Shown: positions 1 to 38,600, numbered from the stretch's first letter. The stretch is 64,000 nt of DNA from Hormiphora californensis (GCA_020137815.1 CM035351.1:8184001-8248000), one strand, 5' to 3'. Translations and numbers: made by a program. Notes: generated by a model from the sequence alone, not told the origin.

Positions 1-1595
1 AAGTATCATGAGCAGAAGTTGCTGAAGAAAGTGGATCTGGTGGAGTGGAAGAAAGATAATAATCTCCGAGAAGCAAAGGTAACATATCACTCACTTCCTC
101 TCCCCTTGTACTTAGTTAGTGATATACCTGATATAGCGGTAAAAAATAAAGGCTGCGGCTGCTTTGACAGGTTTCCACACGCATACCCTATTTTATCATG
201 AAATCCCCAATCCCATTTCCCACTCCCATTTCACACTCCCATTTCCCACTCCCATTTCCCACTCTCATTTCCTTATCATTACTCTTTTTCTTCTTCCCAT
301 AAACATTTAATATCATTGATTAATCCCCGTCAATCATCATAACGTCATATATCAGCTACTAATTCATCATAACGCCACATCACCTACTAATCCCCCCTAT
401 TATGACGTCATATATTCCCTCCATCATGACGTCATCCTGCACGTGCAGGTGATGAGGAAGTACCACATCCAGCACCGGGAGGACTACACGAAGTACAATC
501 GTCTGTGTGGCCACATCAAACACCTGGCAGCCCGGATACGGGATCTGGAGGGGAAGAGTGCCACTAGAGTGGCCAGCTCCACTTCTCTCTTGCAGAAGTT
601 GTATAACATGGGTAGGTGGGGAAGAGAGGGAGGGTAATGATGGATGGGGAAGAGTGCCACTAGAGTGGCCAGCTCCACTTCTCTCTTGCAGAAGTTGTAT
701 AACATGGGTAGGTGGGGAAGAGAGGGAGGGTGGGTAATACTGGAGGGGAAGAGTGCCACTAGAGTGGCCAGCTCCACTTCTCTCTTGCAGAAGTTGTATA
801 ACATGGGTAGGTGGGGAAGAGAGGGAGGGTAATGATGGATGGGGAAGAGTGCCACTAGAGTGGCCAGCTCTACTTCTCTCTTGCAGAAGTTGTATAACAT
901 GGGTAGGTGGGGAAGAGTGAGGGAGGGTAATGATGGATGGGGAAGAGTGCCACTAGAGTGGCCAGCTCTACTTCTCTCCTACAGAAGTTGTATAACATGG
1001 GTAGGTGGGGAAGAGAGATGGTGGGTAATGATGGAGGGATGAGAGGGGAAAGGAGGGAATTGTCTAGTTTTATGAACAATACAAGGAGGGGATAGTAAGG
1101 GTCACTGAAGATGTCGGATATAACACAATTCTCACCTCTTCTCACACCAGGTATACTACCCACGGCGCAGACACTGGCACAGTGTGAGAAGGTGACTGTA
1201 AGTGCGTTCTGCAGGAGACGGCTCCCGGTCATCCTTGTACGACTCCGCATGGCACAATCAGTAAGTAACTAACTGTAACCTACACATTCTCACACACCAC
1301 TGTGTCTAAGTAGTTAGTAGTTACCCCTAGTTCCACCAGTATACACATTATTACACTAAAATACCCCCGCATGTACCTTCAGTAAACACCCCCCCCCCCA
1401 CCCCAGGTAAAAGATGCGGTATCCTACGTAGAGCAGGGTCACATTAGGGTAGGACCCAACTTGGTGACCGACCCCTGCTATCTAGTTACAAGAAACATGG
1501 AGGACTTTATCACTTGGTCAGATGGCAGCAAGATCAAACGACATGTTATGCAGTATAATGATGAACTGGACGATTTCGATCTTCTAAACTGCTAG
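1..1595 (+). CDS. IMP3: U3 snoRNP protein IMP3 (5' end outside window); exons ~1-78, 449-611, 1151-1260, 1407-1595
   Basis: Spliced translation [12 protein letters not shown]...[21 protein letters not shown]...[13 protein letters not shown]...[30 protein letters not shown]...[11 protein letters not shown] matches the conserved IMP3/S4-like sequence; GT-AG junctions keep frame. Confidence 0.95.
551..1018 (+). repeat. Tandem array, 5 copies of a 96-99 bp unit = last ~61 nt of IMP3 exon + splice donor GTAGGT + intron start
   Basis: GGGAAGAGTGCCACTAGAG...TATAACATGG|GTAGGTGGGG starts at 551, 647, 746, 842, 940. Confidence 0.95.
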
Positions 1596-1941
1596 GGGAT
1601 ACTGAGGAGGGTTTTCATTTGGGGACCGAGAGAGGGATTGCAGGACTGGGAAATTGAAAATGTATGGTTTTGTGAAGCTAAGGGGAGTAATTTTACTGCT
1701 GAGTGGTTTTTTAGAGTGTTGTTTCGAAAGAGTGGAGAGAGAGAGCGTGGGAAAATGGGATGTGTGTGAGATCTTTTTTGGGAGTTAGGAGTGGGCTGAA
1801 CTTTTAAATATGACATGTATTAACTTATTAAACATCAGTTTTAAGAACAACCAAAACGTGCACTTATTTCATGTCTATACCTACGTGATACTAGTTACAT
1901 GCTGTACATAACATCTCATGAACTACCTAAATATCCTACAG

Positions 1942-35600: not shown

Positions 35601-38600
35601 AGGGACCCATATGGACCAAATAGTGAAGGAATTAGCTTGTTGCACATTTTTCCATAGTTTCGGTCCTTTCTTAGCTAAAATTCCCTAATTACAGGATATT
35701 GGAGTTTAGCTTTTGCCCTTTTCATAGAATTTGTTTTTCGCAATTACAGCAGAAACGGTTGAAGTAGGAGCAAAATGTTTCTCAGAAGACCCCCCCAAAA
35801 TCGGACCTTCTGAATCGTTTAAGCATAGTCTCAGGTCTCTACGATCAGCCGTTTTTTAGATACAGGGAATTTATTTATTTCTGAAATGACGGCTTTCACA
35901 AAAAAACTCTGTACGACACACCTCAAATAAGGACGCGTCCAAAATTTATGGCCATATAGAGAATCGTTAGACGCAACTTTTCACCAATTTACAGCTTTCA
36001 CATGTTTTCGGAACTTTGCCAAATAGGGCGTTAAAGTAAAAAAAAAGAAATCCATCTCAGGACCGGAAATCAGCTCGGATTTCAAAAAATTTTTTTGTGG
36101 CTACTCACCTCTTTGTCCTCTTCAAATCCACAAATTTTTATGATCCTATCTTTACAAATGTATTTTTAAGATGCCAAAAACTTATTTTCAGTTCATTTTT
36201 CAAGCAGCTGTAGCAAAAATATGAATTCGACTTGAGAGCTCAAATTGCATATTTGAGGTCTCCTTGGCATGGCCTACAACCCTACGGTGAGAGATTTCCC
36301 TGCACTCGAAAAAAATTTTTGGTTAGCGTACCCTTAATGGAGGTAAGGGACTGGGGGAGTGTGGTGTCATATAATAGGAGCTAAGTCTTGGTTTGTTCTA
36401 ACCCTCCTTTACTATAATTACGGTGGGAGAGGGTCGAGCAAGGCACGTCAAGGGACTTGGTGGGTGCTACACAATTTCACTATTACATCAGGAAGTATAA
36501 TAGTAGCGGGTGTAAGTGGTAGCATCTCAATATTCACCAGATCAATATAAAGTACACAAAGACCCCTATATTATTACACGTGTAGTCTCTACACACACAA
36601 CACTCTCTCACTATAGTGTGTGTGTGTGTGTGTGTGTGTGTGTGTGTGTAGAGGGCAGATAGTTTTTGACAGTTTCCTTGTACAGCTGCTCTGGGTATAA
36701 AGGGATGTATTAGAACTAACAACTGTATATCCTGATTATATCCCTCTTTTACCCTCACTGCCTCTCTTTCTCGCCCTCACTCCCTCTATCTCTAACTTTC
36801 TTACTACTCTTTTTCTCTCTCTACCTCTCTCACTACCTCTCCCTCTCAGATCCTGGTATCTGCTACGCCACGATCCTATCCCGTAGCAATGCTATGATGA
36901 GGGTAGATGGAAAACCTTACTCTCCCGAGGATTATGCGGCAAACGGAGAACTTTACACCAACATATTCTCAGAGAAGGTCTGTCTGTCTGTCTGTCTGTC
37001 TGTCTGTCTGTCTGTCTGTCTGTCTGTCTGTCTGTCTGTCTGCCTGCCTGTCTGTCTGTCTTTCTGTCTGTCTGTCTGTCTGTCTTTCTGTCTGTATGCC
37101 TGTCTGTCTGTCTGTCTATCTGTCTGTCTGTCTGTCTGTCTGTCTATGTCTGTATGTTCCCCAAAGGCCATCATTCCCTCTTCAATTGCAAAGATTGCAC
37201 GTGCATTTATTTTCGGATGCCTGAATAAAACATTGTGTAAGCCCCCTCGCAGAGTGATAGCCCTCCCAATACTGGGCCTGTGTATCCCTGATTAACGGCG
37301 GTAGAGGTCCTTGTAATCAAACCGCCCCTATCACAACAGATTTAAAAACCCCATCCCAGCAGCTGCACCTCTATCGTATAATCCCCACTCATCTTTACAC
37401 CCACCCTCTCCCAGGTTGCACCATACACTACATGCCTTATTAACGGAATGTACTGGGAGGCCCCCGCTCCACGAATCCTAAGCGATGCTGATGCTGTCCG
37501 GCTCTTTGGAAAGGGTAGCCAAGCTAAGAATAATATCATGCGTGGTATCCCTCAGATGCCCCACAAAATGCTGGCCATCGCTGACATCACATGTGATATT
37601 GGGGTAAGTTGCTGTGTGTTAGTTGATGCCTTTCTAATGGCAGCTGTATATAAAATAGATGAAGTATCGATAAGATATCAATTCAATCCCAAGTTCCAGC
37701 TTTCTACCGGGAAAATAAAGACAAAATCAACATTGTGATGTCTCCAGATTATTTAGCTAGCAATCGCAGAAAATGCATCGGCTTGGTGGTCTAGTGGTAT
37801 GATTCTCGCTTAGGGTGCGAGAGGTCCCGGGTTCAATTCCCGGCCAAGCCCTTTTTGCTTTTCTGTCACATTGTGATTTCACCAATTCTTTCGTTCTCAC
37901 ATCACCTGTTTTGTTTTTCAGGGTTCAATTGAATTTAGTAAGGAGCCAACAACCGTGGGAAATCCGTTCCAGTTGTACGATCCTAAAACACGGACAGTTC
38001 ACAACGAGTAAGTGATCGCCCCACCTGTCTGTCTTCCTCTCTATTTCTCTTTATATCTTTCCCTCCCTCTATTCCTATTTCCTCTCTCTCTTACTATACA
38101 CTGCGGCAATTGTCCGGTACTCGGTTTTTGATCATCTGCAGCATCTGGTGTCGCACTGCGGGGGCACATCGTCCCATGAGAAGTAATGATGTAGCGCGCG
38201 ACGCTTTTCTACTGTGTAGAATACACCGCGCCGGCACGCTTTGGAGGCAGAAGGCGCCGGCATGGTTGTAACGCGCATTGAATGCACTGCTGAAGCAGTC
38301 TCCCTGATTCACCTGGACATTCAGTGTCTGCAGTCTCCAAGATGTGAGGCAATCAATGTGACATCACAGGTCCCGTTTACCATACAGTCGCCCAGAACAT
38401 CAATGGGTCAGAATCGGATCATACACTTGCCTGATAACACCCAACTGGTGGCAAATTAAAATGTTCATAATATAATATCTGACAATACCAGTGTTTAATT
38501 CGCATCACTCCTGCCCCAGGTTCCATTGAAATCATCAAATTAAAACCAGTCTCTCCCCTCAGTTTCTCTCGTGATGGTGTCTGTGTGATGTCCATTGATA

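What the first reader, a model, noticed from the sequence alone, without database searches (positions are those of the whole stretch)
551..36347. Recurrent tandem amplification of exon-end + 5' splice donor in three unrelated genes
Seen: IMP3 (5 x ~97 bp), BCCT (~12 x 44 bp) and AASS (9 x 59 bp) each have an intron that begins with head-to-tail copies of the preceding exon's 3' end including an intact GT donor. The units are unrelated in sequence, copies are nearly identical, and I saw no array straddling an acceptor. Two of the three arrays contain a mobile-element insertion. Inference: a mutational process focused on donors (e.g. transcription/splicing-coupled breakage with microhomology slippage), or selection that tolerates only donor-side duplication. 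Either would create banks of spare donors or micro-exons and safe landing sites for transposons. I do not know of this as a described system.
Basis: partly seen in the sequence, partly recalled or inferred. Interest (0 to 1): 0.85.

Follow-up and report, generated by a model that had tools for sequence, protein, structure and literature searches.

The report
Comb jelly splice-donor "mirage" minisatellites
In three genes of a comb jelly, a short stretch covering the end of an exon and its splice signal is copied 5 to 12 times into the next intron, a kind of repeat already described in lancelets and humans that is likely harmless because the cell probably keeps using the first signal.

Summary
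In a ctenophore window, IMP3 (5 donors, 96-99 bp units), a BCCT transporter (12 donors, 44 bp) and AASS (9 donors, 59 bp) each carry head-to-tail copies of exon end plus GT donor. Public DNA runs support the AASS array in two samples and the IMP3 array in one, and show neither in a related organism, so these two are real and young; BCCT was not checked. Only the first donor yields a full protein: 23 of 23 later donors truncate it, so they are not usable spares. The structure is already described: amphioxus "mirages" and the human F7, CBS and lamin B2 minisatellites. Mirages also occur at acceptors, which undercuts donor-only selection. This scan found the same architecture before in at least 12 other genomes. 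Still open: 3 of 51 donors in 64 kb is more than random placement gives (P about 0.01 to 0.0002, post hoc), but donor versus acceptor (3 of 51, 0 of 50) is not significant, and neither the whole genome nor usable RNA was available. Verdict: new member of a known kind, apparently first in ctenophores; interest 0.3.

The parts
449..611 (+). IMP3 exon (second in the window); its last ~66 bp seed the array; authentic donor at 612
   Evidence: Spliced model gives an open 179-aa frame; Ribosomal_S4 Pfam hit
546..1038 (+). IMP3 array: 5 units of 96-99 bp (about 66 exon + 30-33 intron); donors 612, 708, 807, 903, 1001
   Evidence: TRF, copy listing; depth rise and tandem joint in run X5, flat depth in run X10
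612..1150 (+). IMP3 intron holding the array
   Evidence: GT..AG, frame kept
12753..12957 (-). BCCT transporter exon 5; its last 30 bp seed the array; authentic donor at 12752
   Evidence: 834-aa open model; junction KNQ|II matches homolog P0131
12345..12782 (-). BCCT array, first part: 10 units of 44 bp (30 exon + 14 intron)
   Evidence: not checked in reads
11198..12344 (+). 1147-bp insert in the BCCT array with a ~300-aa ORF and a (CCAG)n end; likely a non-LTR retroelement fragment (ORF1 likeness recalled, not from a call)
   Evidence: ORF list; no Pfam hit; unnamed ctenophore clusters at 0.93-0.94 in the Atlas; ends
11091..11197 (-). BCCT array, second part: 2.4 units, donors 11163 and 11119
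34397..34475 (+). AASS exon 4; its last 46 bp seed the array; authentic donor at 34476
   Evidence: 21-exon model of 934 aa without stops, same length as the Bolinopsis homolog P0011
34430..34942 (+). AASS array: 8.7 identical units of 59 bp (46 exon + 13 intron); donors 34476 to 34889
   Evidence: depth rise and junctions in runs X1 and X5, none in X10
34943..36333 (.). 1391-bp non-coding element with ~606-bp inverted repeats (98.5%), TTAA target duplication and GG..CC ends, Kolobok-like, inserted in the ninth AASS unit
   Evidence: Kolobok signature from PMC9587614 passage
36334..36360 (+). Rest of the ninth AASS unit and terminal donor (36343), whose intron start differs from the internal copies

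Best explanation
Three tandem arrays whose units span an exon end and its GT donor lie in the IMP3, BCCT and AASS introns; they are 'mirage'-type minisatellites, likely neutral because the cell probably splices at the first donor and removes all later copies as intron. Steps: (1, inferred) a 44-97 bp local duplication across the donor arose by slippage or break repair between short matching words in the exon and the intron start (7 bp in IMP3, 4 bp in AASS; shown in sequence), in purine- and G-rich donor contexts. (2, shown for AASS and IMP3) it was amplified in this lineage: runs of organism A show the amplification and a run of related organism B does not. (3, inferred) ordinary minisatellite turnover homogenised inner units and left terminal units divergent. 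(4, inferred from F7 and amphioxus) the most upstream donor wins, so the mRNA is unchanged. (5, shown) use of any later donor would truncate the protein, so selection keeps only arrays that leave the first donor in charge. The same duplication inside an exon would be purged, so arrays seeded in exonic sequence survive mainly where they run over a splice site; this filter may by itself give a local excess at boundaries (inferred). (6, shown in sequence) two arrays later took insertions.
For: Structure matches the description of mirages and of F7-type minisatellites. First-donor models give complete proteins: IMP3 179 aa, BCCT 834 aa, AASS 934 aa; 23 of 23 later donors truncate. Homolog junctions match the first donor. 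AASS: depth over the unit 2696 in X1 (other 29 bins 50-142) and 3728 in X5 (four adjacent bins 199), with a tandem joint in X1 and junction loose ends in X5; X10 42.5. IMP3: X5 358 before the unit, 2160-7485 over it, tandem joint 628 to 550; X10 one contig flat at 66. Block-wise variant pattern in BCCT and divergent terminal units in IMP3 and AASS fit turnover as in BflGb6. The three donors rank 3, 27 and 39 of 51 in strength, so nothing special is being copied. Purine-rich contexts: P 0.012, 0.035, 0.002 in 3 of 3 window sizes; G-rich in 2 of 3; GC in 0 of 3 (post hoc, n=3).
Against: Donor use was not observed: 3 of 3 RNA-labelled runs laid (X7, X8, X9) gave no usable cover. The first-donor rule comes from mammals and amphioxus, and 6-16 and CBS do use later donors. 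The excess at donors is larger than uniform placement on tolerated DNA predicts (P 2e-4 for the three long arrays; P 0.011 over 23 tandem loci), so neutrality alone does not explain where they arise. In X5 other bins of the AASS stretch also reach 1167-2189, so depth alone is a rough guide. No clear microhomology can be read at BCCT.
Confidence: 0.7

Rival explanations
1. A mutational process tied to transcription or splicing targets 5' splice sites in this ctenophore lineage (for example R-loops or breaks at G-rich exon ends during co-transcriptional donor recognition), so donor arrays arise far more often than elsewhere. The arrays are still neutral, but their origin is donor-specific.
For: 3 of 3 arrays with unit over 40 bp sit on donors; P 9e-5 under uniform placement, 2e-4 on tolerated DNA; 3 of 8 loci with unit 25 bp or more, P 0.004. 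About 6% of donors (3 of 51) are hit. Two arrays tested are absent from the related organism, so they arose in a short time. Sense strands of the units are 30-38% G against 17% at other intron starts. Ebner et al. state the generating mechanism is unclear.
Against: One window picked for looking odd; thresholds chosen after seeing the data; donor count is a slight underestimate. Donor versus acceptor P 0.12. Mirages occur on both boundaries in amphioxus. Unchecked notes of this scan list acceptor-side arrays in other genomes (lead only).
Confidence: 0.2
2. The arrays are functional: spare donors, regulated unproductive splicing, or micro-exon ladders.
For: All 26 donor copies keep GT. The IMP3 unit holds an AG scoring above 42 of 50 real acceptors. 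Human 6-16 and CBS use later donors.
Against: 23 of 23 later donors truncate. With copies 93-100% alike, intact GT is expected without selection. The IMP3 micro-exon needs an 80-nt intron, below the window's minimum of 96, and shifts frame; BCCT and AASS units have no AG scoring as high as any of 50 real acceptors. The related organism lacks the two arrays tested.
Confidence: 0.05
3. The arrays are assembly artefacts.
For: The window holds garbled low-complexity stretches near 17170-17830 and 24150-25120; AASS units are 100% identical. BCCT was not checked in reads.
Against: Amplified depth and tandem junctions in two samples from two studies for AASS and in the second sample for IMP3; BCCT copies carry structured variants and an insert. 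Copy numbers in the assembly may still be wrong, probably too low.
Confidence: 0.02
4. The arrays are new introns being born by tandem duplication of a proto-splice site.
For: Mirages were proposed as a route to intron gain.
Against: Each array lengthens an existing intron with its own distant acceptor; in organism B the IMP3 exon runs into the same intron start with no array (contig 446-630).
Confidence: 0.02

Closest known systems
Amphioxus 'mirage' minisatellites: Adh3, globins BflGb6 and BflGb9 (PMC3087553, passages read); PGBD5 and troponin C (PMC3902484, one passage read). The original Adh3 paper (Canestro et al. 2002) is not held and is known only through these citations.
   Same: Tandem units spanning an exon-intron boundary; unit lengths within the reported 10-160 bp; several unrelated genes in one genome; inner units homogenised, boundary units divergent.
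   Different: Here a ctenophore; three cases in 64 kb, all on donors, whereas amphioxus has both sides; two arrays interrupted by insertions; splicing outcome and allele lengths not measured here.
Human F7 IVS7 37-bp VNTR, with 6-16, CBS IVS13, lamin B2 and PDGF minisatellites (PMC1557585; abstract, Introduction and Discussion read)
   Same: First unit spans the exon-intron boundary, so the exact donor is repeated 4-25 times in the intron.
   Different: F7 units hold 4 bp of exon, these 30-66 bp; the human cases are scattered single loci; first-donor use is shown for F7 and only inferred here.
Intron gain by tandem genomic duplication (PMC4974935 and PMC3443670; search listing and abstract start only)
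   Same: Local tandem duplication that includes splice signals.
   Different: No new intron is made here; an existing intron is lengthened at its 5' end.
Kolobok-type non-autonomous DNA transposons (PMC9587614, passages read), for the AASS insert only
   Same: TTAA target duplication and RR..YY ends.
   Different: No transposase in the element, so family assignment rests on the ends alone.

Membership tests
Mirage minisatellites | Head-to-tail repeats whose unit spans an exon-intron boundary | tested here: met
   3 of 3 arrays
Mirage minisatellites | Minisatellite-sized unit (10-160 bp reported) | tested here: met
   44, 59 and 96-99 bp
Mirage minisatellites | Length instability between alleles or individuals | tested here: inconclusive
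   Depth ratios exceed the assembled copy numbers and X5 holds an IMP3 junction variant absent from the window's five copies, but contig depth is no copy count
Mirage minisatellites | Concerted evolution of inner units, boundary units excluded | tested here: met
   AASS inner units identical, terminal donor context different; IMP3 fifth copy most divergent; BCCT variants in blocks
Mirage minisatellites | Regular splicing is not disturbed | not testable with these tools
   No usable RNA cover in 3 of 3 RNA-labelled runs laid; only the first donor gives a full protein
F7-type donor-spanning VNTR | First unit holds the authentic donor, which is repeated exactly downstream | tested here: met
F7-type donor-spanning VNTR | Only the most upstream donor is used | not testable with these tools
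   No RNA data
Intron gain by tandem duplication | The duplication creates a new intron absent from relatives | tested here: not met
   Organism B has the IMP3 exon end and intron start without the array; each intron has its own acceptor beyond the array
Kolobok transposons (AASS insert) | TTAA target duplication with RR..YY termini | tested here: met
Kolobok transposons (AASS insert) | Kolobok transposase or an autonomous partner | not testable with these tools
   No ORF of 120 aa or more in the element; genome not held

The most novel reading that the evidence does not exclude
This ctenophore lineage has undergone a recent genome-wide burst of donor-specific duplication, hitting on the order of one donor in twenty since its split from a close relative, driven by a transcription- or splicing-coupled mutational process at G-rich 5' splice sites; the genome would then be the best natural system for finding how mirages arise.
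Probability: 0.2. Interest if true: 0.7.

Novelty: new member of a known kind. Interest (0 to 1): 0.3.

Why it matters
As it stands, it extends mirage minisatellites to ctenophores and adds a dated case: two arrays present in one organism and absent from a close relative. How mirages arise is stated to be unclear, and my searches found no genome-wide donor-versus-acceptor count. A genome where about 6% of donors in one window carry arrays makes that count easy, and would test whether first-donor selection holds outside bilaterians. Practical point: such arrays can mislead spliced aligners and gene predictors.

Tried and rejected
Whole-genome test: no genome is held. A scan of metagenome contigs with a 30-bp repeat-end motif, meant to fetch more loci of this or a related species, gave 2 contigs of about 1 kb, which I did not analyse. 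RNA test: X7 gave 2 contigs under 90% alike on AASS; X8 gave 0 and X9 1 contig under 90% on IMP3; no conclusion drawn. 6 of 22 listed runs were laid. The FAN1 homolog search did not place the organism. Shorter or more degenerate copies at other splice sites: none beyond the three with a 14-mer and 1 mismatch (hand-entered acceptors were off by one base there, and the 20-mer test was redone). A fourth array (25-bp unit, 27056-27149 and 25450-25527) lies in what looks like an intron, starts a few bases after a possible donor and holds no exon sequence, so it is not counted as a mirage. Insertion preference for arrays: 2 against 0.5 expected, P 0.09; 3 against 0.55 with the 25-bp array, P 0.019; hand-listed elements, weak. 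GC content does not mark the three donors (P 0.17-0.36). Longest shared exon-intron word: IMP3 9 bp (joint top of 50), AASS 5 bp (ordinary), so microhomology does not predict which donors are hit. The H. californensis genome paper has no mention of minisatellites or of repeats at splice sites in the passages found; its supplements were not read.

Full report
Organism and genes. The window is from a ctenophore: AASS exon 1 is 85% identical to Bolinopsis microptera AASS, against 72% or less for non-ctenophore-named and other hits below the top two, and a BCCT exon is 82% identical to a Bolinopsis transporter and 100% to P0131. Pfam confirms IMP3 (Ribosomal_S4), BCCT and AASS domains. No whole genome is held. 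I built gene models by hand and by homology: AASS 21 exons, 934 aa without stops; BCCT 14 exons, 834 aa; IMP3 179 aa within the window; two GPCR genes with open frames, a lamin model that is imperfect (longest open run 336 of 601 codons) and an unverified gene at the right end. These give 51 donors and 50 acceptors; some 5' exons and one possible gene near 25400-28600 are left out, so both counts are slightly low.

Observation. All three arrays are as described. IMP3 has five donors (612 to 1001) in units of 96-99 bp, about 66 bp of exon plus 30-33 bp of intron. BCCT has twelve donors in 44-bp units (30 exon, 14 intron), ten before and two after a 1147-bp insert. AASS has nine donors in 59-bp units (46 exon, 13 intron), the ninth unit cut at its TTAA by a 1391-bp element with long inverted repeats. 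A 20-mer across the splice site recurs nearby for 3 of 51 donors and 0 of 50 acceptors.

Are they real? A search for public runs listed 22, among them two samples of organism A and runs of a related organism B. I laid six of them on stretches holding one unit each. AASS: depth over the unit was 2696 in X1 (50-142 in the other 29 bins) and 3728 in X5 (199 in the four adjacent bins, though 1167-2189 at 32726-32977, unexplained); X1 shows a joint from unit end back to unit start at low depth and X5 shows the unit's intron part as a loose end before the unit start. X10 (organism B, DNA, since one contig runs through an intron) shows 42.5. IMP3: X5 is flat at 358 up to 545 and 2160-7485 over the unit, with a tandem joint whose letters match none of the window's junctions; X10 has one contig across 446-630 at a flat 66. 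X1 may be the source of the assembly; X5 is another sample and study. Depth is no copy count and overlapping contigs are summed, but both arrays are clearly amplified in organism A, perhaps beyond the assembled numbers, and not in organism B. BCCT was not checked. The three RNA-labelled runs gave no usable cover, so donor use was not observed.

More than chance? Placing the three units at random gives P 9e-5, or 2e-4 if only non-coding and donor-straddling places count. Over 23 hand-listed non-microsatellite tandem loci of the window 0.45 straddlers are expected and 3 seen (P 0.011); over the 8 with units of 25 bp or more, P 0.004. Donor against acceptor is not significant (Fisher P 0.12) (all). 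These are post hoc figures from one window chosen for looking odd.

What the copies could do. Only the first donor gives a full protein; 23 of 23 later donors cut it to 88 of 179, 289 of 834, or 280-288 of 934 residues. Homologs match the first-donor junction. Only the IMP3 unit has an acceptor-like AG; using it needs an 80-nt intron, shorter than all 50 in the window, and adds a 16-nt exon. The three donors rank 3, 27 and 39 of 51 in strength. So spare donors and micro-exon banks are unlikely.

How they likely arose. The exon-side start and the terminal intron share 7 bp in IMP3 and 4 bp in AASS, as slippage or microhomology-guided repair would use; BCCT cannot be read this way. Inner units are homogenised and terminal units diverge. 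The three donor contexts are purine-rich in 3 of 3 window sizes and G-rich in 2 of 3, not GC-rich (12 tests, n=3). I infer ordinary minisatellite birth and turnover, with survival where the array runs out of the exon over a splice site and the first donor keeps control. Insertions are 2 against 0.5 expected (P 0.09). The AASS insert has the TTAA duplication and RR..YY ends given for Kolobok elements. The BCCT insert has a ~300-aa ORF without Pfam match that resembles unnamed ctenophore protein clusters; its likeness to a LINE ORF1 is recalled, not tested.

What is known. Borensztajn et al. (PMC1557585; abstract, Introduction, Discussion) describe the human F7 intron 7 minisatellite whose first unit spans the donor, show that the most upstream donor is used, and list 6-16, CBS, lamin B2 and PDGF, of which 6-16 and CBS also use later donors. 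Ebner et al. (PMC3087553; passages) describe amphioxus mirages at both 5' and 3' boundaries in several genes, with length instability, undisturbed splicing and an unclear generating mechanism; PMC3902484 (one passage) adds PGBD5 and troponin C. Nine searches on the topic showed no ctenophore report and no genome-wide donor-versus-acceptor count; the library lacks most subscription papers, including the Adh3 paper, and the supplements of the ctenophore genome paper PMC8527503 (passages) were not read. Earlier notes of this scan list donor arrays in at least 12 other genomes and acceptor arrays in at least 3; these are unchecked leads, and the mention of lancelets is what sent me to the mirage papers.

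Verdict. Real, young, donor-spanning minisatellites of a described kind, most likely neutral (0.7). A donor-focused mutational process is possible (0.2) and testable with the full genome. Interest 0.3.

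Noticed in passing
window 17170-17830 and 24150-25120: Garbled stretches of long A, G, T and C runs that look like uncorrected low-quality sequence in the assembly.
   Followed up: no
window 46469-48240: A tRNA-Pro gene copy (minus strand) is interrupted by a 1.7-kb element with 28-bp terminal inverted repeats at 46532-48219; intact tRNA-Pro genes lie at 37780-37851 and 48396-48467.
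   Followed up: partly
window 25450-27149: A 25-bp-unit array split by a 1.5-kb inverted-repeat element (25528-27055) with an 8-bp target duplication, itself holding a 290-bp palindrome; probably fills most of an intron of an unannotated minus-strand gene, with a possible 5-nt exon near 25442-25446.
   Followed up: partly
window 6997-8811; 43878-45272; 48498-50901: Nested genes: an intronless family-4 glycosyltransferase inside BCCT intron 8 on the same strand, and two GPCR paralogs inside the 13-kb AASS intron 13 on the opposite strand; nested genes are reported as common in a ctenophore genome.
   Followed up: partly
window 40244-42611: A 2.4-kb palindromic element built from 10-bp units inside AASS intron 10.
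   Followed up: no
window 32726-32977: Run X5 shows depth of 1167-2189 over part of AASS exon 1, several times the depth further on; unexplained.
   Followed up: no
window 9519-9787, 31919-32071; L001, L002: A 30-bp motif occurs four times in inverted pairs, probably the ends of a small transposon family; two 1-kb marine metagenome contigs hold it in the same arrangement.
   Followed up: no
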